UHGV virus genome: UHGV-0373904
Length of the DNA stretch: 64,000 nucleotides
Direction: 5' to 3' (one strand)
DNA from: a virus
Shown: in pieces, positions 10-46,684 of the stretch
Numbering within the stretch: position 1 is the first letter of the stretch
Layout: every line of letters begins with the position of its first letter
The notes under the pieces: model-generated
Database searches by the model: none
Told to the model about the DNA's origin: nothing
What the model saw: the letters and a program-made list of their open reading frames with translations, nothing else
Program-made: the position numbers and the translations under genes

Positions 10-237
10 GTGAGTCATGTAGCAAAAGTTGACAGCAAGATTGAAGAACTTGAGCGCATTCTTGCAAATGCCAGAGAGTCAATAATTAAAGAGGTTGAAG
101 CTGTTGAATCTCAAATGCAGCACCTAATGCTTAAACGTCAAGAGCTACGTGAACATCTGGAATATATTGAAACACGAGAGCTAAAGGTTAACAGATATTT
201 TAAGGAGTCCAAATGTTTAACTCAAGAGAATCAGTAA
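10..237 (+). CDS. hypothetical protein (charged, helical)
   Basis: ORF track; GTG start; overlaps next gene start by 25 nt; no recognisable motif. Confidence 0.3.
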   Translation: MSHVAKVDSKIEELERILANARESIIKEVEAVESQMQHLMLKRQELREHLEYIETRELKVNRYFKESKCLTQENQ

Positions 238-968
238 AAAACTGGAATCTTCGTTGTGGAAACACTCAAAAGCAACCTTACAGTGATGAGTATTGGGAGT
301 CTTTGAAATCTCAATCTCTATGTATGCTTGAAGAAGCAAAAGAGCTTGTAAAAGCAATTGAAGAGAAAGACCCCATTGAGACACTGGATGCTCAGGCAGA
401 TTTGCAATATGTTCTTGACGGTCTGATTTATCTGTCACAGCATGACCACAATGGCGCTATGGAAGCCGTTTGCCATAATAATGACCTGAAGTACACAGAC
501 GACTATGAAGAAGCTTTAAAACGTCTTGCAGATATTGAGAAGCGTACTGGTCAAGAGTGTATCATCAGAATGTCAGTAGTTGATGGTAAAGAGTGGTATG
601 CAATTGTTCGCGCAGCCGATGGGAAGGTTATGAAGCAATCTAATCTCCCTAAAGTTCAGCTTGGTGAATACATTGTAGAACTTGAAAGCCAAGAACTTTT
701 TGTGGTAGTATCTGACACATGCGTTATCTGCAAAGGTATTGTATGTAGCTTAAAGGATTTGGGTGTAGATGGTTTTGTAGAAGTTAATCCAATTACCTCT
801 AAAGCAGATAAAGACTTCTGTAAAGAGAATGGACTATGGATTGCAGATATTGTCTACTATGATGGTGAGCAGTTCCATGTAACCTCATACCCGAAACTGA
901 ATTATGATGCTAATAACCTGAAGTGCTGGTTAAAAGGGGTTGGTTATAATGGATTCACAGAACATTAA
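213..968 (+). CDS. MazG-like nucleoside triphosphate pyrophosphohydrolase domain protein
   Basis: RBS taaggag upstream of ATG 213; N-terminal LEEAKELVKAIEE..DAQADLQYVLDGL resembles the all-alpha NTP-PPase metal-binding helix pair. Confidence 0.4.
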   Translation: MFNSRESVKNWNLRCGNTQKQPYSDEYWESLKSQSLCMLEEAKELVKAIEEKDPIETLDAQADLQYVLDGLIYLSQHDHNGAMEAVCHNNDLKYTDDYEEALKRLADIEKRTGQECIIRMSVVDGKEWYAIVRAADGKVMKQSNLPKVQLGEYIVELESQELFVVVSDTCVICKGIVCSLKDLGVDGFVEVNPITSKADKDFCKENGLWIADIVYYDGEQFHVTSYPKLNYDANNLKCWLKGVGYNGFTEH

Positions 969-5753: not shown

Positions 5754-7898
5754 ATGAACAAAGTACAGATTATTAAAAAGAATGGCTCACTTGAAGAACC
5801 TGATATCAAAAAAGTTTTAGCAGCAGTCACAAAGTCAGCTAACAGAGTTGGTTATAAAGAGCTTCCACCAGATGTTACTCAAGCTCTTGAGTCAGCATTT
5901 ATGAGGATTCTGGTAAAGTCCACCAAGCAGAATAATTTGCTAATTTCGGTAAATGATATTCACAGTATTGTTGAGGGTGCTTTGGCAGAAGTCAATCACG
6001 AGATTTATGAGTCTTACTCAACATATAGAAATTACCGTAAAGAGGTTGCTCAAAATTGGGATGAACTCTACCAGAAGACTAAAGATACACTCTTCTTAGG
6101 TGACCGTGAAAATGCTAACTTTGACAGCAGTTTAATTTCTACGAAAGGTTCAATTATCCGTGGTTACCTGACTAAAGAAATCTTTAAACAGTATCATCTA
6201 ACACCAGAGGAACTTGAAGCCATTGAGAAAGGCTTTGTCTATATCCATGATTTAAGAGACCTGATTTTTGGTGGTATTAACTGTTGCCTGTTTGACATTG
6301 GTAAAGTCCTGAAAGGTGGCTTTGAAATGTCCGGCATTGAGTACTGTGAACCTAAATCTGTACTGTCAGCGTTGCAGGTTATTGGTGACGTAGTACTTTC
6401 AGCAACTGCACAGCAATTTGGTGGTTTTACTTTAGCAGAGATTGATAAGGTACTTGTACCGTATGCTAAGAAGTCTCTACGCTATCATGCTGAGAAAGCA
6501 TCATCTTATGGTATTCCTAAAGAGCATTACCACAATTATGTAATGGAGCAGTTACAAATTGAATTAACTCAAGGTTTTCAGTCACTTGAAATGAAACTGA
6601 ACACTGTACCTTGTAGCCGTGGTGATTTCGCATTCACAACTTTAACATTTGGTTTACTTGACTCAGACATGTCTAATGAAGACAACCGGCTACAATACAT
6701 GATTGCAAACACCATTCTTGATGTTCGCATGAATGGACAAGGTAAGAGTAAGAAGCCTGTTGTATTCCCTAAACTGGTTTATATTCATGACCAGAAGAGA
6801 CACGATGAGAATATCTGTCAAGGCCAACTGTACAGTAAAGCTATTGAGTGTTGCTCTAAAGCAATGTATCCAGATTTCTTAAGCGTATCTGGTCATGGTG
6901 CTGTAGCAGAGGCTTTTGAGCGTTCTGGCAAGGTAATTTCACCGATGGGTTGCAGAGCTTTCTTATCCCCATATCTTAACGAGAATGGAGAAGAGTTCTA
7001 CGTTGGTCGTGCTAACATTGGTGCTGTGTCTTTGAACTTACCAATGATTTACCAGTATTCTAAAGAGAATGGTTTAGATTTCTGGAAAGAGCTTGACAAG
7101 TACCTAGAGATGATTCGCAGCTTCCACAAGAAACGCTACGAAATGATTGCTAATATGCCAGCAAGCTCTAACCCTCTTGCATTCACACAAGGTGGTCTGT
7201 ACAAAGGGACCAAGAAACCTACTGACAAGGTTGGTTGGGATATCGTGAAGTCTTTCACAGCTTCTTTTGGGGTTACTGCGCTTGATGAGTTATCTGTTCT
7301 TGCTGAAGGTAAACGGCTGCATGAAGTTGGGAGCTATAGTTTTGCATACGATGTTCTGGCATACATTAACATGAAAACTGAAGAGTTTAAAAATGAAGAT
7401 GGCTTCTTATATGCTGTCTATGGTACTCCAGCAGAATCACTTTGTGGAACTCAGCTAAAACAGTTCAGAGAAATGTTTGGTGTTATCAAAGGTGTTTCTG
7501 ACAAGGAATACTTTACAAACAGTTTCCATATGAATGTTGCAGCAGACATCTCACCATTTGAGAAGCAGGACTTAGAAGAGCCATTCTTCCATATCTGTAG
7601 AGGTGGCAGAATCCAGTATGTCAGGGTAGCTAACCCAGAAAACTTACCAGCACTTAAAAGCTGTATTACCAGAGGGATGTTGAAAGGTTTCTATCAGGGA
7701 CTTAACTTTGACTTAGCAATCTGTGAACATTGTGGTAACAGACCAAAATCAGATGTTGAAGAGTGTGAAGTTTGTCACTCACATGATATCTCTGTGATTA
7801 ACAGGGTGTGTGGTTATCTTGGATGGACTAAGATTAAAGGTGAATCACGAATGAATGATGCAAAAATCGCTGAGATTCGTGACAGAGTTTCTATGTAA
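5754..7898 (+). CDS. nrdD: anaerobic ribonucleoside-triphosphate reductase (class III)
   Basis: 714 aa; ATP-cone-like N-terminus; C-terminal Cys4 zinc ribbon CEHCG..CEVC and glycyl-radical motif RVCGYL. Confidence 0.9.
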   Translation: MNKVQIIKKNGSLEEPDIKKVLAAVTKSANRVGYKELPPDVTQALESAFMRILVKSTKQNNLLISVNDIHSIVEGALAEVNHEIYESYSTYRNYRKEVAQNWDELYQKTKDTLFLGDRENANFDSSLISTKGSIIRGYLTKEIFKQYHLTPEELEAIEKGFVYIHDLRDLIFGGINCCLFDIGKVLKGGFEMSGIEYCEPKSVLSALQVIGDVVLSATAQQFGGFTLAEIDKVLVPYAKKSLRYHAEKASSYGIPKEHYHNYVMEQLQIELTQGFQSLEMKLNTVPCSRGDFAFTTLTFGLLDSDMSNEDNRLQYMIANTILDVRMNGQGKSKKPVVFPKLVYIHDQKRHDENICQGQLYSKAIECCSKAMYPDFLSVSGHGAVAEAFERSGKVISPMGCRAFLSPYLNENGEEFYVGRANIGAVSLNLPMIYQYSKENGLDFWKELDKYLEMIRSFHKKRYEMIANMPASSNPLAFTQGGLYKGTKKPTDKVGWDIVKSFTASFGVTALDELSVLAEGKRLHEVGSYSFAYDVLAYINMKTEEFKNEDGFLYAVYGTPAESLCGTQLKQFREMFGVIKGVSDKEYFTNSFHMNVAADISPFEKQDLEEPFFHICRGGRIQYVRVANPENLPALKSCITRGMLKGFYQGLNFDLAICEHCGNRPKSDVEECEVCHSHDISVINRVCGYLGWTKIKGESRMNDAKIAEIRDRVSM

Positions 7899-10122: not shown

Positions 10123-10173
10123 ACAGATACTATAAGGGGACTGTAAAGGTTCCCTTTTTATTTTGGAGGTAAA

Positions 10174-10689
10174 ATGTATCTGTCAAACCTGAAACGTTCG
10201 GTTGCAATGTCAGTTCTAAGACTCAGCTTTGATGAGCGTCAAGAGTTTATAGACTCCCACAAATATGACCCTTCAAATTCTAATCACATGGTTCTTTGGA
10301 ATCGTGATAACTTCCGTGAAAGAGCACTTGTCCGTTATTACCCACACTACACAATAGATAACCTGTATGAATGGTGTGTTGTGAAGAACACCATTGCAAC
10401 ACTGAACAATCTTTGCAGGTATACGGGTAAGCAAACATTTACATTAGGTCATCACAAACCTGTTACAAAAGGTGGTGAACATCACTGTGCAAACTGGTTT
10501 ATCCAAACTAAAACTGATAACCAGAAGCAAGGAGATAGCCTCCTAAGTATCCCTAAGATGACCTATGAAGAGCAAGAGAAATATATCAAAAATAATATGC
10601 CAGATGTGCTTGACAACAACTATACAGATTTGGCAATATCTCTCCTGTTGAAGTTCGAGACAGTTTATAGGGCAACTTATAATGGCTAA
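10174..10689 (+). CDS. HNH endonuclease-like protein
   Basis: GHHKPVTKGGEHHCANWFIQTKTDNQKQG matches the HNH beta-beta-alpha metal-finger pattern (H-H..N..N). Confidence 0.5.
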   Translation: MYLSNLKRSVAMSVLRLSFDERQEFIDSHKYDPSNSNHMVLWNRDNFRERALVRYYPHYTIDNLYEWCVVKNTIATLNNLCRYTGKQTFTLGHHKPVTKGGEHHCANWFIQTKTDNQKQGDSLLSIPKMTYEEQEKYIKNNMPDVLDNNYTDLAISLLLKFETVYRATYNG

Positions 10690-10960
10690 AGAAAAGTGGG
10701 AGATTTTACCATTAGTCAGTGAAGGAGGTAATGGTTGTGAAATGTACATGATACGTGGTCATGTTCCAGAGCCAATTGCACTTGAGATGGTAAACAACTT
10801 TACAGATGGTTCTTACAAAGACTTAGGCGAACCAACTGTCAAGCAACAATGGGTTAAACCTGTACCAGACAGCACAGGTAACTGTAGTGTACTTTATCAC
10901 GTTGTAGACCCTGCAAAATGCAAATCTGCAATGGCAGTAACAAACGTAACTTTTGATTGA
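10682..10960 (+). CDS. hypothetical protein
   Basis: ORF track. Confidence 0.4.
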   Translation: MAKEKWEILPLVSEGGNGCEMYMIRGHVPEPIALEMVNNFTDGSYKDLGEPTVKQQWVKPVPDSTGNCSVLYHVVDPAKCKSAMAVTNVTFD

Positions 10961-10971
10961 GAGAGAAAACT

Positions 10972-11853
10972 ATGAAAACATCTATCCGTGTTACAGTTCA
11001 TTCACCAACTAAAGGAACTCATGAAGAAGAGTTTAACATCATCCAATTTCCTTCTGGTGAGATTGGTGGACACTTTTCTCCAGAGTTTGTTGATTTCACT
11101 GCTTATGCAGCATCATCCATCAACAATGTGATTATGATTGTAAAAGGTTATGATAAGGATACATTGTTTGCTGTGGCACTTGCTAAAGAAGCAATTGATG
11201 ATTTAATTCCTCATGATTATGCTTTAAAGACTGTCATCTTTTACTACTTACCAAATGCACGTTATGACCGTCACATGTTTAAAGGCGACGCAGCAGCTTT
11301 AAAGGTTTTTGCTAAACAGGTAAATGCAATGGGATTTGGTGCAGTCTGTGCAGTTGACCCTCACAGTTACGTTCCAGATAACCTGTTTAACTGCTTCCAG
11401 AGTATTCCTCAAAAGGAGATTGCAGTTCACTACGCAAATGACCCACTGATTGATTACTTAGTAGCCCCAGATGCAGGTGCTGCTAAGAAGATTGCAGAGA
11501 CTGCTAAAGAGGTGGATAAACCATACATCACAATGTCTAAGGTGCGTAACCTTAAGACTGGTGAAATTACTGGTATGCGAATCCTTGACGATGTTGATTT
11601 GACAGATAAAACTGTCATGATTCTGGATGATATTTGTGATGGAGGTCGAACCTTCATAGAAGCAGCCAAACATCTTCGTGAAGCAGGTGCAAAACGTGTG
11701 GAACTCTATGTAACTCATGGTATTTTCTCTAAAGATGTTGAAAACTTGCTTGACAATGGTATTGACCATATCTACACTACAAACTCTTTAGGGGAAGCTA
11801 AAGACCGTGGCTTAACACATTATAGCCAAGTTACTGTAGCAAACCTTGATTAA
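10972..11853 (+). CDS. ribose-phosphate pyrophosphokinase (Prs) homolog; candidate ADP-ribose pyrophosphokinase (Adps-like)
   Basis: start moved from track TTG 10957 to ATG 10972; PRPP-binding loop VMILDDICDGGRTF; phosphoribosyltransferase fold length; sits immediately upstream of the NAMPT-like gene. Confidence 0.75.
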   Translation: MKTSIRVTVHSPTKGTHEEEFNIIQFPSGEIGGHFSPEFVDFTAYAASSINNVIMIVKGYDKDTLFAVALAKEAIDDLIPHDYALKTVIFYYLPNARYDRHMFKGDAAALKVFAKQVNAMGFGAVCAVDPHSYVPDNLFNCFQSIPQKEIAVHYANDPLIDYLVAPDAGAAKKIAETAKEVDKPYITMSKVRNLKTGEITGMRILDDVDLTDKTVMILDDICDGGRTFIEAAKHLREAGAKRVELYVTHGIFSKDVENLLDNGIDHIYTTNSLGEAKDRGLTHYSQVTVANLD

Positions 11854-11863
11854 AACTTTATAG

Positions 11864-11885
11864 GGGCTTCCAAGCCCCATTTTGA
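11864..11885 (+). terminator. hairpin / weak terminator
   Basis: GGGGCTTCCAAGCCCC followed by ATTTTG. Confidence 0.4.
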
Positions 11886-11898
11886 GAGAGATTAAAAG

Positions 11899-13680
11899 AT
11901 GACTAAATCACTTTATGCAGTACCAGCAGGTTTAAATGCAGATGCTTACAAATCTGGTCATGTTTACCAGTATCCTAGCGCAACAGAGTACTTGATGTTC
12001 AATCTGACACCACGTAGCGACAAATGGTTTAACAGCCCCTTAGCAATTGACGGTGTAGTGGCTTTTGGTATTCAACGTTTTGTTAAAGATTACTTGATAG
12101 ACCACTGGAATGCCACTTTCTTTGAACGTGATAAAAAAGAAGCCATTGATGAAATCTTAGAAGTCATGAATGGTGTTCTGGGTAAAGATGCTATCGGTCG
12201 AGAGCATTGGGAAGCACTTCACGACTTAGGTTATCTACCAGTTGAAGTATACGCTGTAGAAGAAGGCACAGTTGTTCCAATGCGTGTCCCGATGATTGTC
12301 TTTCAGAACACTGTTTCAGGTTTTCATTGGGTAGCAGGTTATCTGGAAGATGCTTTCTCTGCTGAAATTTGGAAGGCTTGCACCATTGCAACTATTGCAT
12401 TGCATTACAAACGCATCTGTAAGAAGTGGGCTGACCTTACTTGTGACAATGACTTACATTTACCTTATCAGTGCCATGATTTTGCTATGCGTGGTATGTC
12501 CGGCTTTACTGATGACGCATTTAACGCTGTAGGTCACTTAACCAGCTTTAAAGGGACTGATAGCTTCCCTGCTGTATACACGGCTAAACGAATCTATGGA
12601 CAGTCCTACCCAATCTCTGATATTGGTAGTTCTGTACCAGCCACTGAGCACTCTGTAATGTGTGCAAACATTGCTTGGGAAGGTGGTAATGAGTTGATTG
12701 AAGATGAAAGACGCTTTAAAGGTGAGTTACAAACCTTTCGTCGTTTCTTAACAGAAACTTACCCAACTGGTATTGCAAGTGTTGTTTCAGACACTTATAA
12801 CTTCTGGAGAACTGTGTCAGAAATCTTACCAGCACTCCGTAAAGAAATTATGGAACGTGATGGCAAACTGGTAATTCGCCCTGACTCTGGAGACCCTGTA
12901 CATATTGTCACAGGTTATAAAGCAATCCACTTAGAGTGTGCTAAGAAGGCTTATTACGAGCACCTTAGCAAGCTGGAAGCCAGCGACACAATGTTGAATG
13001 CTGTTCTGAACATGAAGCTTGAAAACATCAATTATGGTATTGCTGGATGGCTACTGTCAGAAGGCTACGAAATGGTTGTTGACAGAGAAGACTTTGAAGT
13101 TGCTGATACAGTGCTGTTGAAAAACGCTTATATGGTTGGTTCTGCAAACGTTGTAACACGTCCTGTAGCTGAGATTGATGGAGCTATTAAGACACTGCAC
13201 AACATCTTTGGAGGAACTATTAACTCTAAAGGTTTTAAGGTACTGGATGAGCACATTGGCCTTATCTATGGCGACTCTATCACGCTGGAACGTGCAAACG
13301 AAATCCTGAAGCGTCTGTATGAAATGGGTTTTGCAAGCTCTAACGTAGTGTTTGGCGTAGGCTCTTACACTTACCAGTACATGACTCGTGACACCTTTGC
13401 ATTTGCTGTTAAAGCAACTCTTGCAAGCATTGGTGGTAAAGAGATTATGCTTGCAAAAGACCCTAAAACAGATAGTGGTGTTAAGAAGTCTGCTTTTGGT
13501 GGTGTAGCACCTATGTGGGATGGCGAAAAGCTGAAAGCTGTAGATGGCTATGGATTCCAGAGTTTTGCAGATGCACTTGACCATCCAGCTTGTGCTTTAC
13601 GCTTAGTCTTTAGCGACTCTGAGCAGTTTGGTTACACAACTCTTGGTGATATTCGAAATAATATTGACAAGCAGCTTTAA
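11899..13680 (+). CDS. nicotinamide phosphoribosyltransferase family protein (NadV/NAMPT-like; candidate Namat)
   Basis: 593 aa; NAMPT-family length and motifs recognised by eye; co-directional, 45 nt after the Prs-like gene. Confidence 0.8.
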   Translation: MTKSLYAVPAGLNADAYKSGHVYQYPSATEYLMFNLTPRSDKWFNSPLAIDGVVAFGIQRFVKDYLIDHWNATFFERDKKEAIDEILEVMNGVLGKDAIGREHWEALHDLGYLPVEVYAVEEGTVVPMRVPMIVFQNTVSGFHWVAGYLEDAFSAEIWKACTIATIALHYKRICKKWADLTCDNDLHLPYQCHDFAMRGMSGFTDDAFNAVGHLTSFKGTDSFPAVYTAKRIYGQSYPISDIGSSVPATEHSVMCANIAWEGGNELIEDERRFKGELQTFRRFLTETYPTGIASVVSDTYNFWRTVSEILPALRKEIMERDGKLVIRPDSGDPVHIVTGYKAIHLECAKKAYYEHLSKLEASDTMLNAVLNMKLENINYGIAGWLLSEGYEMVVDREDFEVADTVLLKNAYMVGSANVVTRPVAEIDGAIKTLHNIFGGTINSKGFKVLDEHIGLIYGDSITLERANEILKRLYEMGFASSNVVFGVGSYTYQYMTRDTFAFAVKATLASIGGKEIMLAKDPKTDSGVKKSAFGGVAPMWDGEKLKAVDGYGFQSFADALDHPACALRLVFSDSEQFGYTTLGDIRNNIDKQL

Positions 13681-13693
13681 AAGTATATGATAA

Positions 13694-13717
13694 GAGGCTC
13701 CTACGGGAGCCTTTTTA
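13694..13717 (+). terminator. intrinsic terminator candidate
   Basis: hairpin AGGCTCCTACGGGAGCCT followed by TTTTT. Confidence 0.6.
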
Positions 13718-14255: not shown

Positions 14256-16622
14256 ATGCGCATGGTAAATGACCACGCAGAAGTGATTAAGAGTTCAACT
14301 TCTTTGGAGACATCTCAAGCACAGATTACAATGACACCTGAAATGTTCAGCCTTCTGAGTTCTGGTGTATACACATTTAAAGAAAGGGCAGTGATTCGTG
14401 AACTGTCATGTAATGCAGTAGATGCTCAGAAAGAAGCTGGAAAAGAGAACATCCCGTTCCATGTGCATTTGCCTACTCGATTTGAGCCTTACTTTGAAGT
14501 CCGTGACTTTGGAACTGGTTTAACCCATGACAAAGTAATGAGTTTGTATCTGAACTACGGGGCTTCTACGAAGAATGACTCTAATGATTACATTGGTGCA
14601 ATGGGTATCGGCTCAAAATCCCCATTTGCAATTGCTCAGTCATTCACAGTATCTAGCTATGTTGATGGTGTTGTTAATAAGTACTCTGTTTACCTTGAGA
14701 ATGGTATCCCTCAAGTAACTAAGCTCACTACTAACCAAACAAATGAACCTAATGGTTTAGCTGTACGTGTGGCAGTTGCTGACCACCGTATTTCAAAGTT
14801 CTTTGAAGAGGCTGGTAATGTATACTCATACTTTGCTGTAAAACCAGAGAGTAATGTGGAGTATAATGATATATTGGCAGATATGGATGTGATTGCTCGT
14901 GAAGAAGGTGTCTATGATGCCATGACTCATAAGCATAGCTGGCGTTCAAGCAGCAATAGAACAGAGTTTAACGTGGTTATGGGTAATATTGCCTATCCAG
15001 TTAATATGGAGGCATTACTTGGTGATGATTTCTTCAAAGTATTACCAGAATTTTTCCGCAGGAGCGTAGACCTTGTAAACATCTACATGCCCATTGGTTC
15101 AGTTGCTATTGCAGCTTCTCGTGAAGCATTGCAGATGAATGACACGACAAAAAATGTTATCATTGAGGCTACTAAAAAGATAACTGAAGCCATTACAAAG
15201 GATGTTATCAAGAAAGTTAATAGCCAACCTACACTCATGGATGCTGCACAGGCTTATGCTGAGTTACGTTTGAACTCACGAGAGATGTTTAATGCTGTGT
15301 GTCCAAAGCTAGAGTGGGGTGGTGTTAAGCTTGATTCTCTGGAAGAAGAATTACTAAACATTCGTCGTGGAATTATCTACGCAGAAGACGGCTCAGTCAT
15401 TTATGAACGTGACGGTAAAGGTAATATTAAGGTTGATAGGAACGGGAACAATATACCTAAAGTAGATTATCTTTATGACCCAGTTGCTTATGTCAAGTTC
15501 AACTCTTTAGAGAGTAAGATTCGTGCAACATCGCTTTCCTACACTCAAGAGGCAAGTATGTTCAATATCTTTGGCGCAATGCGTAAAAGCCAAATTGAAC
15601 AGTTTTTGTTTGTTATAAATGACCGTCGCAATAAAAATGGTACTGAGAAAACTGTAGGACGCAATCAAATCTTGCGTGGTGCATGTCGAGACTATGCCAG
15701 TGAGTCTAGTCTGTTTCACAGATACAATGGTATTGTCTTTGTATTCTCGACTGAAAAAGAGTTAGACGACCTAATCAATCTGCACAAACTTGATAAAAGC
15801 TTGTTAAAGATTGTGAAGATGTCTGATAAGGAACACCATTATCAGCGTAAAGAAGCTGTAAGAGGTGTTGTAAAACTCTGGAAAGCTGTTCCAGCAGAAG
15901 GTGTAGCTTCCTATAAAGAGGTTTCAGAGGACTTTGATACAATTGAAGAACCTCAGCTTTACATTAAGGCAGTTGGTGACACAGTTGATGGCGAATGTTT
16001 TTGCTCATCTCCAGAAGATGTAGCTAAGTCAGTTGCTAATGTTACAGGTAAGACAGTCTATGTTTTCCGAAAAGCAAATTGGAAAAAGATACCAGAAGAC
16101 TGGATTGAAGTAGATGAGAAGCTCTTGAACGACAGCTTAACTGATGTTCATTGGATTAATCATAACAGGTATATGACACGTATCTATATGAATGGTGTCC
16201 TCGACCTTACAAGCAGTTGGATTATTGCCAGAAACTTTACGTTCAATAACAGGAAGATTTCTCGTGGCTATTGTTATTCACGGGATACAAACAAAACTAT
16301 CTTCTTAGAAGGCAATGAAGATGCTGTAGAGGCAATGTTTGGTAAAATCCAATACGTTGCTGCACCGTTTGCATATACTTACACTATTAGTAGGTTGCAA
16401 ACTTTGAAAGACTGCCTTGACAATGATACAAAGCTGTACAAGAAAATTAAGAAAGCTGGTGACCGTATGGTCATTAAGGTGACAAACTACCTTTCAAAAA
16501 GAAAACAAGAAAACTTCTTGCTTTCTCATTTAGATTGGAATAAAGTGTCACCCATCGAAGTGAGTAAGTTCTTAGGCTTTGATGTGAAGTGTGTTCCAGA
16601 AGGGACTACAATTTACGATTAA
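14256..16622 (+). CDS. rIIA-like protein (GHKL-type ATPase domain)
   Basis: 788 aa; RBS aagagga; N-terminal ELSCNAVDA and DFGTG boxes resemble the histidine-kinase-like ATPase fold of phage rIIA. Confidence 0.55.
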   Translation: MRMVNDHAEVIKSSTSLETSQAQITMTPEMFSLLSSGVYTFKERAVIRELSCNAVDAQKEAGKENIPFHVHLPTRFEPYFEVRDFGTGLTHDKVMSLYLNYGASTKNDSNDYIGAMGIGSKSPFAIAQSFTVSSYVDGVVNKYSVYLENGIPQVTKLTTNQTNEPNGLAVRVAVADHRISKFFEEAGNVYSYFAVKPESNVEYNDILADMDVIAREEGVYDAMTHKHSWRSSSNRTEFNVVMGNIAYPVNMEALLGDDFFKVLPEFFRRSVDLVNIYMPIGSVAIAASREALQMNDTTKNVIIEATKKITEAITKDVIKKVNSQPTLMDAAQAYAELRLNSREMFNAVCPKLEWGGVKLDSLEEELLNIRRGIIYAEDGSVIYERDGKGNIKVDRNGNNIPKVDYLYDPVAYVKFNSLESKIRATSLSYTQEASMFNIFGAMRKSQIEQFLFVINDRRNKNGTEKTVGRNQILRGACRDYASESSLFHRYNGIVFVFSTEKELDDLINLHKLDKSLLKIVKMSDKEHHYQRKEAVRGVVKLWKAVPAEGVASYKEVSEDFDTIEEPQLYIKAVGDTVDGECFCSSPEDVAKSVANVTGKTVYVFRKANWKKIPEDWIEVDEKLLNDSLTDVHWINHNRYMTRIYMNGVLDLTSSWIIARNFTFNNRKISRGYCYSRDTNKTIFLEGNEDAVEAMFGKIQYVAAPFAYTYTISRLQTLKDCLDNDTKLYKKIKKAGDRMVIKVTNYLSKRKQENFLLSHLDWNKVSPIEVSKFLGFDVKCVPEGTTIYD

Positions 16623-16701: not shown

Positions 16702-17811
16702 ATGACTACTAAAACTAAAGCACAGATTGACGCAGAAATTTACGAACTGGTTAAAGAAGGTAAGCTGACTAAAACAGCTATCGCACAGAAGTTCAATACT
16801 TCAACCCGTTCAGTTGGTCGTGCTGTAGAGCGTCATGAAGCAACCTTAAAAGGTAAGAAAAAGGCAACTTCTAAGCCAGCTAAGAAGACCCTAAAGCAAG
16901 TTGCTAAGTCAGTTAAAAAGAAAACTGGCAAACCAGTTGAAAAGGTTGTTAAAGAGGCTGTACAGAAAGCTCCAGTAAATAAACTGCATGAAGCTATGCA
17001 GAAAGATGACAAGATTGAGTACATGATTACTGGTGATTCTGTAATTATGACTTATGGTTCAGAATCTGAAATTGTTGAGTCTACTCATCCGAACTATCAA
17101 GAGATTGTAGTTCATGTTGTGAAAGGTGAGTTCAAGAAAGCATTTGAACTGATGAACATTCGTAAGTCTATCGAAAACTTCACTCAGGGTGCTATCACAA
17201 TCAAAGGCGACAAGCTATTCTACGGTGCTGTTGAGATGCGTTCTACTCTGGTTGACCGTATTCTTCACATGATGAAAACTGGCGATAAAGGTTTTGAACG
17301 ACTTGTAATGTTCTTCGAAAAACTGATGGAAAACCCATCTAAAGATTCTGTAGAACAACTTTGGGGATTTGTATCTCACCTTGATGTTGAAATTGATGAA
17401 GAAGGCTACATCATTGGTTGGAAGAAAGTCTCTACTCGTGAAGGCAAGCTGGTTGACTCTCACACCTACAAAGTGCCTAATGATTTGGGTAACATTGTAG
17501 AAATGCCACGTTGGATGGTTGATAATAACCGTAACGTAACTTGCTCTCAAGGTCTTCATGTTGGTGCTTGGGATTATGTTCGTTGCTTCTCAGGTGATAC
17601 AATCCTGAAGGTTCGCGTACATCCACGAGATGTTGTATCTGTTCCAACTGATTACAACGATATGAAGATGCGTTCCTCTCGTTATGAAGTTGCAGCAATC
17701 GTTGATAATCAGCGTAAAGTGCTGAAAGCGTGGGATGGTAAGACTGAAGCTTTGCATGTCATCGTTGGCACTGCTGGTGAACTCATCTCTCAACGTAAAC
17801 GTGAAATCTAA
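16702..17811 (+). CDS. rIIB-like protein (putative)
   Basis: 369 aa directly downstream of the rIIA-like gene; basic Lys-rich N-terminal region; assignment by synteny only. Confidence 0.4.
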   Translation: MTTKTKAQIDAEIYELVKEGKLTKTAIAQKFNTSTRSVGRAVERHEATLKGKKKATSKPAKKTLKQVAKSVKKKTGKPVEKVVKEAVQKAPVNKLHEAMQKDDKIEYMITGDSVIMTYGSESEIVESTHPNYQEIVVHVVKGEFKKAFELMNIRKSIENFTQGAITIKGDKLFYGAVEMRSTLVDRILHMMKTGDKGFERLVMFFEKLMENPSKDSVEQLWGFVSHLDVEIDEEGYIIGWKKVSTREGKLVDSHTYKVPNDLGNIVEMPRWMVDNNRNVTCSQGLHVGAWDYVRCFSGDTILKVRVHPRDVVSVPTDYNDMKMRSSRYEVAAIVDNQRKVLKAWDGKTEALHVIVGTAGELISQRKREI

Positions 17812-21161: not shown

Positions 21162-21947
21162 ATGGGTATTGTAAAAATAATCAATGGTGATATCTTTGCC
21201 GCATTTGATAAAGGTAAGTTTGACATCATCGGTCACGGTTGCAACTGTATGAATTTAATGGGTGCAGGTATCGCTGACAAGATTTCTAAACTTTACCCAA
21301 AAGCATATGAGACCGATACAGAAGTTTATCTATATGCAGGTGGTATAGGACACAAACCCTGTGAAAATTTACTGGGTAATTTCTCTGTAGCACGTTTAAA
21401 ACAAGGTCGTATAGCTAACCTTTACACTCAGCTTAAGACTGGTAAAGATGCCCGATACAGTGCTTTAGAGTCATCTTTGAAACAGCTTAACAGATACTGT
21501 GAAGTCAATCAGTTGAAGAAAGTCGGGTTACCTATGATTGGTGCAGGTATCGGTGGGCTAGACCCTCAAGCCGTCACAGTTATCATTAATCAGGTGATGA
21601 AGAGTGTAGATGTTTATCTATATGTCTATGAAGGAGAGATGTACCACAAGTTACGCTCAGGTTGGAAGAACTACTGTGAACCAGAATACTTTGCAGGTGT
21701 AGTTGTGTTCACGGATAATGCAGTTACCCTCTTCAGACGAAGAAAAGGTAAGATACATCAAAGTAACCCTCCGGTTGAAAAGATGTCTCTAAGTAACGCT
21801 CTAGTTACCCACCTGTCAAAGAGCAATCACAGAATTGCTGTAACATTTGGTAGTGATGCAGAAGCTTATATCTATGCAAGAACTGATGAGGATATCGAGG
21901 CAATCTTCTCTTCACCAGAAGTTACCTTCTTAGACGCAAAGAACTAA
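21162..21947 (+). CDS. macro-domain (ADP-ribose binding/processing) protein
   Basis: GDIF..DIIGHGCNCMNLMGAGIA and LPMIGAGIGG resemble macro-domain signature segments. Confidence 0.5.
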   Translation: MGIVKIINGDIFAAFDKGKFDIIGHGCNCMNLMGAGIADKISKLYPKAYETDTEVYLYAGGIGHKPCENLLGNFSVARLKQGRIANLYTQLKTGKDARYSALESSLKQLNRYCEVNQLKKVGLPMIGAGIGGLDPQAVTVIINQVMKSVDVYLYVYEGEMYHKLRSGWKNYCEPEYFAGVVVFTDNAVTLFRRRKGKIHQSNPPVEKMSLSNALVTHLSKSNHRIAVTFGSDAEAYIYARTDEDIEAIFSSPEVTFLDAKN

Positions 21948-44770: not shown

Positions 44771-45324
44771 GATACTTAAAATATGTTTCATGGATTTTCT
44801 TAGCTTTGTTAGAACCATTTGCAGCAACCCTAGCAGTCATCTTAGCACCTTTCGTAGTTCCATTCTACAGTGAGAAGAAAGGGCATCTACCTTTTGGATT
44901 CAGATGGACGGAGACCTATGACAACCCTATTGATGGTGACAAAGGCCACGTTGAGAGATGGGCTAAGATTAGAAAGATTGGTAAGCTTGGTGTCTACATG
45001 CAGAGAGTTGGATGGCTCTGGAGAAACAAAGCTTATAACTTCTCTTACCATGTATTAGGAAGAGATGTAAAAGACGTTACTAAGTGGAAAGGTAATATCA
45101 ACGTAAGTTCTAACCCTGAAGATAATCAAACAGGTTATCTCCTAATGTGGAACAGTAATGCTTGGGGATTATTCGCTTTTATCCCATCAATTAAAATCTT
45201 TGGTAAACAGTTTTACTGGAGAATTTATATTGGATGGAAACTTAAAAGTGTTGTCCCAGAAGAAAGAGCATTCTCAAGGGAAAGAGTTATGTTGGCATTC
45301 TTTATTCATCCACTGAGAAAGTAA
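44767..45324 (+). CDS. membrane protein (embedded in tRNA array)
   Basis: ATGA overlap with upstream gene; N-terminal TM helices WIFLALLEPFAATLAVILAPFVV. Confidence 0.45.
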   Translation: MRYLKYVSWIFLALLEPFAATLAVILAPFVVPFYSEKKGHLPFGFRWTETYDNPIDGDKGHVERWAKIRKIGKLGVYMQRVGWLWRNKAYNFSYHVLGRDVKDVTKWKGNINVSSNPEDNQTGYLLMWNSNAWGLFAFIPSIKIFGKQFYWRIYIGWKLKSVVPEERAFSRERVMLAFFIHPLRK

Positions 45325-45332
45325 AGATTTAA

Positions 45333-45408
45333 AGGGGATTAGTTTACAAGGTTAAAACCTCGGTCTTTGAAATCGAAGAAGTTGGTTCAATTCCAACATC
45401 CCCCGCCA
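45333..45408 (+). tRNA. tRNA-Gln(TTG)
   Basis: acceptor AGGGGAT/ATCCCCC with unpaired 1:72 (A/C), discriminator G, loop CTTTGAA, T-arm GTTGG-TTCAATT-CCAAC, CCA. Confidence 0.65.
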
Positions 45409-45410
45409 AT

Positions 45411-45489
45411 GCTCCATTACTCCAATTGGCAGAGAGGCCAGACTTAAAATCTGTGTTATGTATCGGTTCGAATCCGATATGGAGTACCA
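45411..45489 (+). tRNA. tRNA with Leu anticodon (TAA), short variable arm
   Basis: acceptor GCTCCAT/ATGGAGT, loop CTTAAAA, T-arm ATCGG-TTCGAAT-CCGAT, discriminator A, CCA; 79 nt. Confidence 0.55.
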
Positions 45490-45494
45490 AATTT

Positions 45495-45570
45495 AGCGGT
45501 ATAGCATAACTGGCAATGCAACAGTCTCTGAAGCTGTCCTATTAAGGTTCAAATCCTTATGCCGCTGCCA
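45495..45570 (+). tRNA. tRNA-Gln(CTG)
   Basis: acceptor AGCGGTA/TGCCGCT, anticodon stem ACAGT/GCTGT, loop CTCTGAA, T-arm TAAGG-TTCAAAT-CCTTA, discriminator G, CCA. Confidence 0.65.
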
Positions 45571-45601
45571 CTTCTAAGGATTCTTACGAGAGTCCTTAAA
45601 T

Positions 45602-45677
45602 GTGGCCTTATCATAAAAGGTAATGACCCATGCTGTGAACATGGTCTATACGGGTTCAAATCCCGTAGGTCACCCCA
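45602..45677 (+). tRNA. tRNA-His(GTG)
   Basis: acceptor GTGGCCT/AGGTCAC, anticodon stem CCATG/CATGG, loop CTGTGAA, T-arm ACGGG-TTCAAAT-CCCGT, discriminator C, CCA. Confidence 0.7.
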
Positions 45678-45682
45678 ATTTA

Positions 45683-45760
45683 TAGTCCAAGTAGCTTATA
45701 TGGTTAAAGCGCGTGTCTGAAAAACATGAGAAGAGGGTTCAAATCCCACTGGACTACCAA
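45683..45760 (+). tRNA. tRNA-Phe(GAA)
   Basis: perfect acceptor TAGTCCA/TGGACTA, anticodon stem CGTGT/ACATG, loop CTGAAAA, T-loop TTCAAAT, CCA. Confidence 0.7.
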
Positions 45761-45775
45761 TTTCAAAGGTGCTTA

Positions 45776-46510
45776 ATGAAAGAGATGACAGAACAAGGTA
45801 AGGAGATTTTTAATCTCTTAAAAACTGGTAAAGGGTTTTCTAACCCCCTTATTACTGGTGCAGCAGTTCTCGGTGGAACCGTAGCTGCCTCTACATCACT
45901 TGTAAGCTCTATTAGCTCTGTATCAGACCCTACAGTAAAGGATAAGCTTGTTGCTGCTGGACTTACAACAGTTCTGCTTAACAGCTTTACCACGAGTCTG
46001 ACAAGCACTACATCAACTACCAAAACACTAACAGATTACGGTCAAAAGTCCATTGATGAGTTTTCATCACGTATGCAGGTAGCAAAAGGTTACTCTAATG
46101 TTATGGGTGCAGCAGGTGAACAAGTTGGCTGTACACCGTTTAGTGGTATTATGGGCGTTGCTACAGAATATGGTCAAAAAGCTATTGACACAATTAACAG
46201 TGCACTAGATGTCGTTAATGATGTATTAAGTGACTTACAAGATGCTATTGACAAAGGTCTTGATACTATTTCTGATTTAGCTAACCAAGCTGTTAGTAAG
46301 ATTAATGAAGGTATTTCGAAGATTACAGCTTATGCAGATGAAGTTGTGCAGATGATTGAAGAAGAAGCTGCTCTTATTGCAGAGTACCTTAAAACGAATA
46401 TCAATGGGTTCTTAGCAGGTATCTTACCAGACTGGTTTGATGATGCTTGTAAAACTGGTGTGATTGACACTATTGCAACACCAGAAATGAAGAACGCATT
46501 ACAGAAATAA
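45776..46510 (+). CDS. hypothetical Ser/Thr-rich protein
   Basis: track ORF starts at GTG 45713 inside tRNA-Phe; ATG 45776 is the first start downstream of the tRNA. Confidence 0.45.
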   Translation: MKEMTEQGKEIFNLLKTGKGFSNPLITGAAVLGGTVAASTSLVSSISSVSDPTVKDKLVAAGLTTVLLNSFTTSLTSTTSTTKTLTDYGQKSIDEFSSRMQVAKGYSNVMGAAGEQVGCTPFSGIMGVATEYGQKAIDTINSALDVVNDVLSDLQDAIDKGLDTISDLANQAVSKINEGISKITAYADEVVQMIEEEAALIAEYLKTNINGFLAGILPDWFDDACKTGVIDTIATPEMKNALQK

Positions 46511-46511
46511 T

Positions 46512-46604
46512 GGAAGATTAACCCTAAAAGGTAAGGGAGCAGTTTGCTAAACTGCCAGTAGCTGAGAAATCGGTGTACCAGTTCAAGTCTGGTATCTTCC
46601 TCCA
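46512..46604 (+). tRNA. tRNA-Ser(GCT), long variable arm
   Basis: acceptor GGAAGAT/ATCTTCC, anticodon stem GCAGT/ACTGC, loop TTGCTAA, long variable arm, T-arm ACCAG-TTCAAGT-CTGGT, CCA. Confidence 0.7.
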
Positions 46605-46608
46605 ATTT

Positions 46609-46684
46609 GAATCCGTGACAGAAATGGCTATGTGCCTGTCTGCAAAACAGGTTTATAAGGGTTCGAGTCCCTTCGGATTCTCCA
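46609..46684 (+). tRNA. tRNA-Cys(GCA)
   Basis: acceptor GAATCCG/CGGATTC, anticodon stem CCTGT/ACAGG, loop CTGCAAA, T-arm AAGGG-TTCGAGT-CCCTT, CCA. Confidence 0.7.

What the first reader, a model, noticed from the sequence alone, without database searches (positions are those of the whole stretch)
10972..13680. Adjacent Prs-like and NAMPT-like genes match a two-enzyme NAD+ reconstitution (NARP1-type) anti-defence module
Seen in sequence: a ~293-aa Prs homolog with PRPP-binding loop DDICDGGRTF sits 45 nt upstream of a 593-aa NAMPT-family gene, co-directional and closed by a terminator. Established knowledge: phages encode Prs-like ADP-ribose pyrophosphokinase (Adps) plus NAMPT-like Namat, which rebuild NAD+ from ADP-ribose and nicotinamide and counter NAD-depleting immunity (Thoeris, DSR, SIR2/TIR systems). 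Inference: this pair is that module rather than ordinary PRPP/NMN salvage; no NMN adenylyltransferase gene is visible in this window.
Basis: partly seen in the sequence, partly recalled or inferred. Interest (0 to 1): 0.8.

Follow-up and report, generated by a model that had tools for sequence, protein, structure and literature searches.

The report
Known phage NAD+ rebuilding gene pair (NARP1)
The two adjacent genes are real and are the already published NARP1 anti-defence module (Adps plus Namat) of FelixO1-like E. coli phages, which rebuilds NAD+ from the pieces left by bacterial NAD+-destroying immune systems, so the reading is right but not new.

Summary
A 293-aa Prs-like ORF (10972-11853) lies 45 nt upstream of a 593-aa NAMPT-like ORF (11899-13680). 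They are co-directional and end at a strong terminator hairpin (13692-13715).

The window is a Felixounavirus genome, 99% identical to phage KhF3 across this locus. The Prs-like protein is 293/293 identical to KhF3 Adps, which the paper that defined NARP1 lists by sequence. It is 78% identical to Bas63 gp79. The NAMPT-like protein is 98% identical to Bas63 gp80. Bas63 genes 79-80 are the pair in which NARP1 was discovered.

The defining sequence features are present:
- the Namat adenine-clamp motif GSYTYQYMTRD and the K42-W43 loop;
- the Nampt-like catalytic core;
- the Adps catalytic lysine (K190) and the DDICD donor loop.

The Prs-like protein fails every NCBIfam Prs equivalog cut-off. No NMNAT, PnuC/NadR, Macro or RyR gene sits in or beside the operon.

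Side leads: a Poa1p/TARG1-like Macro-domain gene 7.5 kb downstream, an Ounavirinae-specific ~77-aa insertion in Namat, and a recombinant N-terminal half of Adps.

The parts
10972..11853 (+). adps: ADP-ribose pyrophosphate synthetase (Prs-like), 293 aa. Catalytic Lys K190 is at nt 11539-11541. The PP/donor loop DDICDGGRTF (aa 219-228) is at nt 11626-11655.
   Evidence: ORF. It is 293/293 identical to KhF3 Adps, which is listed in the supplementary table of Osterman et al., and 78% identical to Bas63_0079. It is 33% identical to the structurally solved ICP1 Adps. ICP1 residues F18, R87, H121, D161, K185, D212, D213, I214, C215, D216 and F221 map to identical residues F26, R97, H131, D167, K190, D219, D220, I221, C222, D223 and F228. 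It fails the NCBIfam Prs equivalog cut-offs.
11863..11878 (+). Intergenic hairpin GGGGCTT-CC-AAGCCCC followed by ATTTT, between adps and namat. It may be a weak attenuator or an RNA-stability element.
   Evidence: Sequence. The predicted fold is -12.6 kcal/mol for the whole 49-nt spacer, which forms this hairpin plus a second small stem. The stem is identical in Bas63 while the two loop bases differ (CC versus GA). The terminator scan did not call it, because it has only 4 T. Its function is inferred only.
11899..13680 (+). namat: nicotinamide ADP-ribose transferase (NAMPT-like), 593 aa. The SCL loop PRSDKWF (aa 38-44) is at nt 12010-12030. The SCH motif GSYTYQYMTRD (aa 488-498) is at nt 13360-13392. 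The lineage-specific insertion (aa ~351-427) is at nt 12949-13179.
   Evidence: ORF. It is 98% identical to Bas63_0080 and 586/593 identical to KhF3 Namat. The best solved relative is SpbetaL1 Namat 9w5w/9w5x at E = 1e-127, against Xcc Nampt at 4.5e-52 and mammalian (mouse, rat, human) NAMPT entries at about 4e-41 or weaker. Motif comparison is and motif positions are.
13692..13715 (+). Intrinsic terminator closing the operon.
   Evidence: 10-bp stem, T-run. (-16.6 kcal/mol, identical in Bas63).
10134..10156 (+). Upstream terminator-like hairpin. Together with 13692-13715 it brackets a four-gene unit (10174-13680).
   Evidence: It is conserved in Bas63 apart from one T. That the four genes form a transcription unit is an inference.
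10174..10689 (+). Context, not part of NARP1: 171-aa HNH-like protein, the ortholog of Bas63 gp77.
   Evidence: 89% identical to Bas63_0077. It matches phrog_3500 and gives a weak HNH endonuclease hit at 2.2e-6. Bas63 gp77 is reported as a counter to retron Ec67.
10682..10960 (+). Context, not part of NARP1: 92-aa protein of unknown function directly upstream of adps.
   Evidence: No Pfam hit. It matches phrog_4726 of unknown function. Homologues occur only in 231 records, nearly all enterobacterial FelixO1-type phages.
21162..21947 (+). Possible distal accessory (unproven): 261-aa Macro-domain protein of the Poa1p/TARG1/DarG-like class, with a ~100-aa C-terminal extension.
   Evidence: Pfam Macro 1e-7. 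It is 98% identical to Bas63_0095 'putative phosphatase'. It is 27% identical (E = 4e-13) to the Macro protein that sits between Adps and Namat in Vibrio phage Pontus. tblastn also hits the Vibrio phage Gary locus at E = 6e-6. The window protein and the Pontus protein share the same top solved-structure matches. The best NCBIfam hit is the DarG macro domain at 1.2e-12, below the cut-off.

Best explanation
This is the NARP1 (NAD+ reconstitution pathway 1) operon of a FelixO1-like myophage. An NAD+-depleting host defence, such as SIR2-HerA/Nezha, DSR, type I Thoeris, SEFIR or Kongming, cleaves NAD+ into ADP-ribose and nicotinamide. Adps (10972-11853) then transfers the beta-gamma pyrophosphate of ATP to the 1'' hydroxyl of ADP-ribose, making ADPR-PP. 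Namat (11899-13680) replaces that pyrophosphate with nicotinamide and regenerates NAD+ directly, with no NMN intermediate and no adenylyltransferase. The phage thereby escapes abortive infection.

Shown here: gene anatomy, orthology and conservation of the diagnostic residues. Shown in the literature for close orthologues: the chemistry (SpbetaL1 and ICP1 enzymes) and the phenotype (Bas63 deletion of genes 79-80). Inferred: that this particular phage's proteins do the same.
For: Orthology:
- The window is a Felixounavirus. Its best DNA match is KhF3 at 99.0% over 2851 nt, and 235 phage records cover at least 80% of the locus.
- Adps is 293/293 identical to KhF3 KT184315_00110, listed as an Adps cluster representative in the NARP1 paper's table.
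- Namat is 583/593 identical to Bas63_0080. Adps is 230/293 identical to Bas63_0079, with identical lengths and spacer.

Published phenotype and chemistry:
- Deleting genes 79-80 sensitises Bas63 to SIR2-HerA.
- ADPR-PP appears only in wild-type infection of defence-carrying cells.
- Protection persists in a host lacking pncC and nadR.
- An independent screen found a 10^4 to 10^6 drop in plating for either single deletion.

Namat features:
- The SCH motif GSYTYQYMTRD matches the Namat consensus. SpbetaL1 Namat has GSFTYQYNTRD and Xcc Nampt has GGALLQKVDRD.
- The SCL loop K42-W43 fits the Lys-then-stacking-residue variant described for Bas63.
- Counting through the alignment, the core residues D15, Y17, F195, R198, D221, H251 and R327 correspond to SpbetaL1 D13, Y15, F189, R192, D215, the catalytic His and R306.

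Adps features:
- K190 corresponds to ICP1 K185, and the DDICD loop is conserved.
- The best NCBIfam Prs equivalog score is 103.7 bits against a 296-bit cut-off. E. coli Prs scores 532.6 bits on its best model, a subfamily-type Prs model with a 297-bit cut-off.
- Pfam does not detect the Prs N-terminal domain PF13793.

Absences:
- No NMNAT, Nudix, PnuC or NadR family hit in 28 other ORFs scanned.
Against: No enzyme from a Felixounavirus has been assayed in vitro, because the Bas63 Adps did not purify well and SpbetaL1 proteins were used instead.

The N-terminal 180 aa of this Adps allele are only 68% identical to Bas63's, so the Adps half of the phenotype transfer rests on a divergent allele. 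Three ICP1 ligand-contact positions differ: F92 becomes M102, A218/A219/S220 become G225/R226/T227, and F223 becomes E230. The same residues are present in Bas63, however.

Namat-type enzymes also make NMN from PRPP in vitro, so some ordinary salvage activity is not excluded. HMM libraries cannot separate Namat from Nampt: NF006629 is passed at 469 bits against a 405-bit cut-off.
Confidence: 0.95

Rival explanations
1. Ordinary salvage, the pre-2024 annotation. In this view the first enzyme is a true PRPP synthetase and the second a true Nampt (NadV) that makes NMN. Host NadR or PncC then converts NMN to NAD+ to boost NAD+ during infection.
For: GenBank annotations of all close relatives say 'ribose-phosphate pyrophosphokinase' and 'nicotinamide phosphoribosyltransferase'. 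The first protein just passes the broad TIGR01251 subfamily cut-off (123.5 against 113 bits), and the second passes NF006629. Namat can make NMN from PRPP in vitro.
Against: Bas63 still overcame SIR2-HerA in a host lacking pncC and nadR. The SpbetaL1 homologue gave no product in the Prs-type control reaction but made ADPR-PP from ADP-ribose. Namat made only NAD+ when both donors were offered. The first protein fails every Prs equivalog threshold. In the alignment with E. coli Prs its C-terminus is shorter, which is the region where published Adps homologues lack helices alpha11-alpha12. The SCH adenine clamp is of the Namat type, not the Nampt type.
Confidence: 0.03
2. A nucleotide-supply module. 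The Prs-like enzyme would raise PRPP for nucleotide synthesis alongside the neighbouring ribonucleotide reductase genes, and the link to NAD+ defence would be incidental.
For: The pair lies just downstream of the nrdA, nrdB, nrdD and nrdG cluster.
Against: 97% of Adps-clade genes have a Namat neighbour, which argues for a dedicated two-step pathway. ADPR-PP appeared only when a defence system was present. Two terminator-like hairpins separate the unit from the nrd genes. One of the two genes that share this unit with the pair is itself the ortholog of a reported anti-retron counter-defence gene.
Confidence: 0.02
3. An extended pathway. NARP1 would work together with the Macro-domain protein at 21162-21947 as a split version of NARP1-AP. 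The Macro protein would convert ADPR-1''-phosphate, or other ADP-ribose conjugates, to ADP-ribose and so feed Adps.
For: The Macro protein is homologous to the operon-embedded Macro phosphatase of Thalassavirus phages: 27% identity and E = 4e-13 to Pontus, and a tblastn hit on the Gary locus. The two proteins share the same top solved-structure matches, OARD1/TARG1, DarG and Poa1p. Several unrelated phages with an Adps-family match also carry such a Macro gene elsewhere in the genome, for example Salmonella phage 7-11, vB_Eco_PATM and Chewbecca.
Against: The gene is about 7.5 kb from Namat and outside the operon. The family is very broad, with 2849 phage records, many of them ~165-170-kb enterobacterial phages in which the gene sits next to a valyl-tRNA synthetase modifier and carries names such as Tk.4 protein. 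I did not check whether those phages carry NARP1. The best curated hit is the DarG macro domain, which suggests removal of ADP-ribose from DNA instead. No experiment links it to NARP1.
Confidence: 0.15

Closest known systems
NARP1 of Escherichia phage JohannRWettstein (Bas63), genes bas63_0079 and bas63_0080 (Osterman et al., bioRxiv 10.1101/2024.02.11.579819; later published in Nature, from memory)
   Same: Same genus, same gene order, same lengths (293 and 593 aa) and the same 45-nt spacer with a hairpin and terminator. Namat is 98% identical and Adps is 78% identical. The flanking genes (gp77-like, gp78-like, gp82-like, rIIA, rIIB) are also shared.
   Different: The N-terminal 180 aa of Adps belong to a different allele: 68% amino-acid identity and dS of about 1.9, against about 0.19 in Namat. 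Bas63 carries an extra 114-aa gene (bas63_0081) right after the terminator, which the window lacks.
KhF3, KhF2 and wV8 Felixounavirus entries in the NARP1 supplementary tables
   Same: Adps is 293/293 identical to KhF3 and KhF2. Namat is 586/593 identical to KhF3.
   Different: Essentially nothing. The window is another isolate of the same phage group.
SpbetaL1 NARP1, the biochemically characterised Adps and Namat (Namat structures 9w5w and 9w5x)
   Same: The Namat core, the catalytic residues and the SCH aromatic clamp are shared. The match has E = 1e-127.
   Different: The window Namat has a ~77-aa insertion after the RPDSGDP strand (aa ~351-427) and a ~15-aa insertion near aa 258-272. Its SCL uses K42-W43 instead of R40.
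Vibrio phage ICP1 Adps (structures described in PMC13586617)
   Same: 33% identity. The acceptor groove residues, the catalytic Lys and the DDICD loop are conserved.
   Different: The tail of the PP loop is GGRT rather than GAAS. F92 becomes M102 and F223 becomes E230. The window protein also has a longer C-terminus.
NARP1-AP (Adps-Adpp-Namat, Vibrio phage Gary and Pontus) and RyDEP-containing NARP1 (mycobacteriophage DyoEdafos)
   Same: The core Adps and Namat pair.
   Different: The window has no Macro or RyR-domain gene within the operon or in the two genes on either side. A Macro gene exists only 7.5 kb away.
NARP2 (Nampt + Nmnat, KVP40) and NARP3 (PnuC + NadR-like, Bas30)
   Same: The same strategic goal of restoring NAD+.
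   Different: Different chemistry and genes. No Nmnat, PnuC or NadR homologue was found among the scanned ORFs.

Membership tests
NARP1 (Adps + Namat) | A Prs-like protein that belongs to the phage Adps clade rather than to cellular Prs. | tested here: met
   It is 100% identical to a sequence listed as Adps in the defining paper and 78% identical to Bas63 gp79. It is only 24% identical to E. coli Prs. It fails all Prs equivalog cut-offs.
NARP1 (Adps + Namat) | Adps catalytic and acceptor residues: the beta-hairpin Lys, the DD-I-C-D PP loop, and the Arg, His and Asp of the acceptor groove. | tested here: met
   K190, D219, D220, I221, C222, D223, R97, H131, D167, F26 and F228 align with ICP1 K185, D212, D213, I214, C215, D216, R87, H121, D161, F18 and F221. 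Three peripheral contact positions differ.
NARP1 (Adps + Namat) | [quoted passage not shown] | tested here: met
   GSYTYQYMTRD lies at aa 488-498, with Y490 and Y494. Xcc Nampt has GGALLQKVDRD at the same place.
NARP1 (Adps + Namat) | A Namat SCL loop that supplies an adenine-stacking residue: Arg at the third position, or Lys or Tyr followed by the stacking residue. | tested here: met
   The loop PRSDKWF contains K42-W43 and is identical to Bas63, the example named in the paper.
NARP1 (Adps + Namat) | adps and namat are adjacent and co-oriented (Namat within 10 genes of Adps). | tested here: met
   The gap is 45 nt, the strand is the same, and a terminator follows namat.
NARP1 (Adps + Namat) | Chemistry: ADPR + ATP gives ADPR-PP, then ADPR-PP + nicotinamide gives NAD+. 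| not testable with these tools
   Shown for the SpbetaL1 and ICP1 enzymes, and in vivo for Bas63. It is inferred here by orthology.
NARP1 (Adps + Namat) | The module relieves NAD+-depleting defence. | not testable with these tools
   Shown for Bas63 deletions of genes 79-80 and for single deletions.
Canonical PRPP synthetase (Prs, class I) | The protein scores as a Prs equivalog, with the Prs N-terminal domain, the DxxDTxGT ribose-5-phosphate loop and the C-terminal regulatory helices. | tested here: not met
   The best equivalog score is 103.7 bits against a 296-bit cut-off. Only the broad subfamily model is passed, at 123.5 against 113 bits. PF13793 is not detected. The loop is DDICDGGRT, against DDMIDTGGT in E. 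coli, and the C-terminus is shorter.
Canonical Nampt / NadV | The NAMPT-family fold and catalytic core. | tested here: met
   NF006629 scores 469 bits against a 405-bit cut-off, and the protein matches PF04095 and PF18127. This places it in the superfamily only. The specificity clamp is of the Namat type.
NARP2 (Nampt + Nmnat) | An NMN adenylyltransferase gene in the same phage. | tested here: not met
   No PF01467, NadR or Nudix hit among 28 non-structural ORFs scanned. None is annotated in the parts of KhF3 and Bas63 that I read. About 24 kb of the genome lies outside the window and was not scanned.
NARP1-AP | A Macro-domain ADPR-1''-phosphate phosphatase (Adpp) within two genes of NARP1. 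| tested here: not met
   The neighbouring genes have no Macro domain. A homologous Macro gene lies about 7.5 kb downstream, and its role is untested.
NARP1 with RyDEP | A RyR-domain (PF02026) glycosidase in the operon. | tested here: not met
   No PF02026 hit in the flanking ORFs.
NARP3 | A PnuC-like transporter plus a NadR-like bifunctional enzyme. | tested here: not met
   No such Pfam hits among the scanned ORFs. The definition is taken from PMC13464706.

The most novel reading that the evidence does not exclude
FelixO1-like phages may run a split, extended NARP1. In this reading the Poa1p/TARG1-like Macro-domain protein at 21162-21947 is encoded outside the operon and so was missed by the published 'within two genes' survey. 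It would convert ADPR-1''-phosphate (the aRES product) or ADP-ribosylated targets into free ADP-ribose for Adps, widening the range of NAD+-directed defences that the phage escapes. A lesser variant of the idea is that the Ounavirinae-specific ~77-aa insertion in Namat adds a regulatory or partner-binding function.
Probability: 0.15. Interest if true: 0.4.

Novelty: already known. Interest (0 to 1): 0.12.

Why it matters
It matters little as a discovery. NARP1 was defined in 2024 in Bas63, a phage of the same genus, and this exact Adps sequence is printed in that paper's table.

The practical value lies in annotation. Public records of these phages still call the genes 'ribose-phosphate pyrophosphokinase' and 'nicotinamide phosphoribosyltransferase', and the general HMM libraries used here cannot tell Namat from Nampt. 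The sequence rules applied here can be used to re-annotate them: the SCH aromatic motif, the K-W loop, the DDICD loop and failure of the Prs equivalog models.

For phage therapy or host-range prediction, the module predicts escape from SIR2-, TIR- and DSR-type NAD+ depletion. By published data it does not predict escape from aRES, unless the distal Macro protein compensates.

Tried and rejected
1. I guessed accession MZ501111 for Bas63, which turned out to be phage WalterGehring. The right accession, MZ501086, came from the PhageMaP preprint.
2. AlphaFold2 on the Namat insertion alone (aa 334-433, single sequence) gave a mean pLDDT of 55.5, too poor for a fold search. Only a helical start is suggested.
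3. Pfam, PHROGs and NCBIfam have no Adps- or Namat-specific models, so a profile-HMM vote between Namat and Nampt is impossible. I used motif and residue tests from the structure papers instead.
4. I asked whether the small flanking genes (92 aa upstream, 111 aa downstream) are NARP1 accessories. Their homologues occur only in FelixO1-type (Ounavirinae) phages, with no association to NARP1 in other lineages, so I rejected the idea.
5. I asked whether the divergent N-terminal half of Adps reflects diversifying selection. dN/dS is 0.12 with dS of about 1.9, so it is an old allele brought in by recombination under purifying selection.
6. The promoter scan gave nothing I trust. The best hit, 13664-13691, lies at the end of namat, and counts are only modestly above the shuffles.
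7. The terminator count for the region is not above chance (3 found against 3.3 expected). I rely on hairpin strength and conservation instead.
Full report
**Observation**

The ORF table shows a 293-aa ORF from the ATG at 10972 to the stop at 11853. An in-frame TTG at 10957 would add 5 codons. A 593-aa ORF runs from 11899 to 13680. Both are on the + strand and are separated by 45 nt. The string DDICDGGRTF is at aa 219-228 of the first protein. Each start codon is preceded by GAGAGAG. A 10-bp GC-rich hairpin with a T-run follows the second gene at 13692-13715 (-16.6 kcal/mol). Family matches are unambiguous: Pfam Pribosyltran 1.2e-11 and NAPRTase 9.2e-35, and PHROG families at 4.6e-97 and 1.5e-201.

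**Where the window comes from**

The locus is 99.0% identical over 2851 nt to Enterobacteria phage KhF3, and 235 phage records cover at least 80% of it. Nearly all are Felixounavirus phages of Escherichia, Salmonella, Shigella and Citrobacter. Gene order around the locus matches KhF3 and Bas63: nrdA, nrdB, nrdD, nrdG, small genes, the Prs-like gene, the NAMPT-like gene, rIIA, rIIB, a tRNA block and the structural genes.

**Identity with the founding NARP1 operon**

NARP1 was discovered by deleting genes 79-80 of the BASEL phage Bas63 (JohannRWettstein), a Felixounavirus. Bas63 is MZ501086. Its bas63_0079 and bas63_0080 have the same lengths (293 and 593 aa) and the same 45-nt spacer as the window genes. 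The window Namat is 583/593 identical to bas63_0080, and the window Adps is 230/293 identical to bas63_0079.

The supplementary tables of that paper print the KhF3 Adps sequence (KT184315_00110, a cluster representative). They also label the KhF3, KhF2 and wV8 Namat entries 'Adps-associated'. The window Adps is 293/293 identical to that printed sequence, and the window Namat is 586/593 identical to the KhF3 Namat. So the module is not merely similar to NARP1. It is one of the catalogued instances.

**What is known about how it works (literature)**

- In Bas63 infection of SIR2-HerA cells, ADPR-PP (m/z 720.01) appears only when genes 79-80 are present. NAD+ is restored, and protection persists in a host lacking pncC and nadR.
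- The SpbetaL1 Adps makes ADPR-PP from ADP-ribose + ATP but gave no product in the Prs-type control reaction.
- The SpbetaL1 Namat makes NAD+ from ADPR-PP + nicotinamide and prefers ADPR-PP over PRPP.
- An independent knockout screen found a 10^4 to 10^6-fold loss of plating on Sir2-HerA for either single deletion.
- Structures exist for SpbetaL1 Namat (PMC12774641) and ICP1 Adps (PMC13586617).

**Residue-level membership tests**

For Namat, the best solved relative is SpbetaL1 Namat (9w5w and 9w5x, E = 1e-127). Xcc Nampt scores 4.5e-52, and the mammalian (mouse, rat, human) NAMPT entries score about 4e-41 or weaker. Counting through that alignment gives the following correspondences:

- Nicotinamide and NMN contacts: SpbetaL1 D13, Y15, F189, R192, D215 and R306 correspond to window D15, Y17, F195, R198, D221 and R327, and the catalytic His is H251.
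- Other product contacts: G360, D361, G390, S391, T398, R399 and D400 correspond to G458, D459, G488, S489, T496, R497 and D498.

[quoted passage not shown] The window has GSYTYQYMTRD at aa 488-498. SpbetaL1 Namat has GSFTYQYNTRD, and Xcc Nampt has GGALLQKVDRD at the same place. The SCL loop reads PRSDKWF. K42-W43 is the 'Lys, then the next residue stacks' variant that the paper describes for Bas63, and this stretch is identical in Bas63.

For Adps, I aligned the window protein with Bas63, ICP1, Pontus and E. coli Prs (alignment A1) and mapped the residues.

- Conserved: ICP1 F18, R87, H121, D161, K185, D212, D213, I214, C215, D216 and F221 map to identical residues F26, R97, H131, D167, K190, D219, D220, I221, C222, D223 and F228.
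- Different: F92 becomes M102, A218/A219/S220 become G225/R226/T227, and F223 becomes E230. Bas63 shares all three differences.
- E. coli Prs has DDMIDTGGT in the loop and a longer C-terminus.

NCBIfam gives a clean negative for 'true Prs'. The window protein's best equivalog score is 103.7 bits against a 296-bit cut-off, and it passes only the broad TIGR01251 subfamily model (123.5 against 113 bits) through residues 87-292. E. coli Prs scores 532.6 bits on its best model, a subfamily-type Prs model with a 297-bit cut-off, and 422.7 bits on TIGR01251. Pfam does not detect the Prs N-terminal domain.

**Other NAD+ pathways excluded**

I scanned the eight genes flanking the pair and twenty further ORFs of 131-471 aa, all lying outside the structural module, against Pfam. 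None hit an NMN adenylyltransferase, Nudix, PnuC, NadR or RyR family. None is annotated in the parts of KhF3 and Bas63 that I read. NARP2 (Nampt + Nmnat), NARP3 (PnuC + NadR-like), the operon-embedded NARP1-AP and the RyDEP variant are therefore not what is here. About 24 kb of the phage genome lies outside the window and was not examined.

**Surroundings**

A terminator-like hairpin at 10134-10156 and the one at 13692-13715 bracket four co-directional genes, and both hairpins are conserved in Bas63. The four genes are:

- a 171-aa HNH-like protein at 10174-10689, 89% identical to Bas63 gp77, which is reported to counter retron Ec67;
- a 92-aa protein of unknown function at 10682-10960;
- adps;
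- namat.

Downstream lie a 111-aa unknown, a small membrane protein, and rIIA and rIIB, whose Bas63 orthologues are reported as counters of QatABCD. The two small flanking genes occur only in FelixO1-type (Ounavirinae) phages and show no link to NARP1 elsewhere. The spacer between adps and namat holds a hairpin at 11863-11878. Its stem is identical in Bas63 while the two loop bases differ. It has too few T residues to be called a terminator, so its role is an inference.

**Things off the main line**

1. Mosaic Adps. Against a background of about 95% nucleotide identity with Bas63, nt ~10950-11500 drop to 61-79%. This corresponds to 68% amino-acid identity in residues 1-180 against 95% in residues 181-293. 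dS is about 1.9 there, against 0.36 in the C-terminal half and 0.19 in Namat, with dN/dS between 0.04 and 0.12 throughout. This is an old allele exchanged by recombination and kept under purifying selection. Across phage records, about 155 carry the window-type allele (at least 90% identity) and about 91 carry a 60-80% type.

2. Namat insertion. Relative to SpbetaL1 Namat the window protein has about 77 extra residues (aa ~351-427) after the RPDSGDP strand, plus about 15 near aa 258-272. ICP1 Namat lacks the large insertion. Pontus has an unrelated insertion at the same site. The window-type insertion is found only in 254 FelixO1-type (Ounavirinae) records. A single-sequence structure prediction was too poor to use.

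3. Macro-domain protein at 21162-21947.
   - It is 261 aa, with Pfam Macro at 1e-7, and is 98% identical to Bas63_0095 'putative phosphatase'.
   - It is 27% identical (E = 4e-13) to the Macro protein that lies between Adps and Namat in Vibrio phage Pontus. tblastn also hits the corresponding locus of Vibrio phage Gary, whose Adpp is the published ADPR-1''-phosphate phosphatase.
   - The window protein and the Pontus protein share the same top solved matches, OARD1/TARG1, DarG and Poa1p.
   - Against a link to NARP1, the family is very broad, with 2849 phage records. Many are ~165-170-kb enterobacterial phages where the gene sits next to a valyl-tRNA synthetase modifier. I did not check whether those carry NARP1. 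The best curated hit is the DarG macro domain.

   A role feeding NARP1 is therefore only a lead. I give it about 15%.

**Verdict**

The module is NARP1 in the very phage genus where NARP1 was found, with this exact Adps sequence already listed in the defining paper. It is already known and of low interest as a finding. Its main use is in correcting legacy annotations. The residual novelty lies in the distal Macro protein and in the lineage-specific Namat insertion.

Noticed in passing
window 21162-21947 (+): A 261-aa Macro-domain protein of the Poa1p/TARG1/DarG-like class with a ~100-aa C-terminal extension specific to FelixO1-type phages. It is homologous (27% identity, E = 4e-13) to the Macro phosphatase embedded in Thalassavirus NARP1-AP operons but lies 7.5 kb from NARP1. 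It could be an ADPR-1''-phosphate phosphatase, an anti-DarT glycohydrolase or an RNA-repair enzyme.
   Followed up: partly
window 10950-11500 (Adps codons 1-180): A recombinant patch that is only 61-79% identical in nucleotides to Bas63, in a background of about 95%. dS is about 1.9 and dN/dS is 0.12. Two Adps N-terminal alleles circulate among FelixO1-type phages.
   Followed up: yes
window 12949-13179 (Namat aa ~351-427): A ~77-aa insertion in Namat that is absent from the SpbetaL1 and ICP1 Namat proteins. It is found only in 254 FelixO1-type (Ounavirinae) phage records. Vibrio phage Pontus has an unrelated insertion at the same site. The single-sequence AlphaFold model was poor, with pLDDT 55.5.
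   Followed up: partly
window 11863-11878: A conserved 7-bp GC-rich hairpin followed by ATTTT in the 45-nt adps-namat spacer. The stem is identical in Bas63 while the loop bases differ. It may be an attenuator or an mRNA-stability element.
   Followed up: partly
window 10174-10689 (+): The ortholog (89% identity) of Bas63 gp77, which is reported to counter retron Ec67. The preprint calls it GIY-YIG, but the only family signal here is a weak HNH endonuclease match (phrog_2214, 2.2e-6), and the sequence contains an HH...N...H-like stretch.
   Followed up: partly
window ~13733 versus L003:25509-25853: Bas63 has an extra 114-aa gene (bas63_0081, phrog_20372, function unknown) inserted immediately after the NARP1 terminator, and the window lacks it. 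This looks like a variable slot next to the operon.
   Followed up: partly
window 41381-46684 (+): A block of 26 tRNA genes, typical of FelixO1-like phages. ARAGORN reads the 46512-46604 gene as tRNA-Ser(gct), whereas the KhF3 record labels the corresponding gene tRNA-Cys.
   Followed up: no
window 5754-7898 (+): nrdD is a single intact 714-aa ORF here. In Bas63, nrdD is annotated as joined from two pieces around a homing-endonuclease gene (bas63_0068).
   Followed up: no
window 14256-16622 and 16702-17811 (+): rIIA and rIIB homologues lie directly downstream. Their Bas63 orthologues (g84, g85) are reported as counters of the QatABCD defence, so this early region is rich in counter-defence genes.
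   Followed up: no
window 213-968 (+): A 251-aa protein with a MazG/PRA-PH-like pyrophosphohydrolase domain (PF01503, 6.7e-6).
   Followed up: no
window 36589-37722 (-): A 377-aa protein with three immunoglobulin-like domains (Ig_3, 6.6e-33). Its position next to the endolysin gene matches Bas63_0124, annotated 'immunoglobulin-like domain protein'.
   Followed up: no
phage records hit: Records named 'Campylobacter phage A126/A132' and 'Staphylococcus phage SA1' carry near-identical FelixO1-like sequence. They are probably contaminants or mislabelled hosts in the public collection.
   Followed up: no
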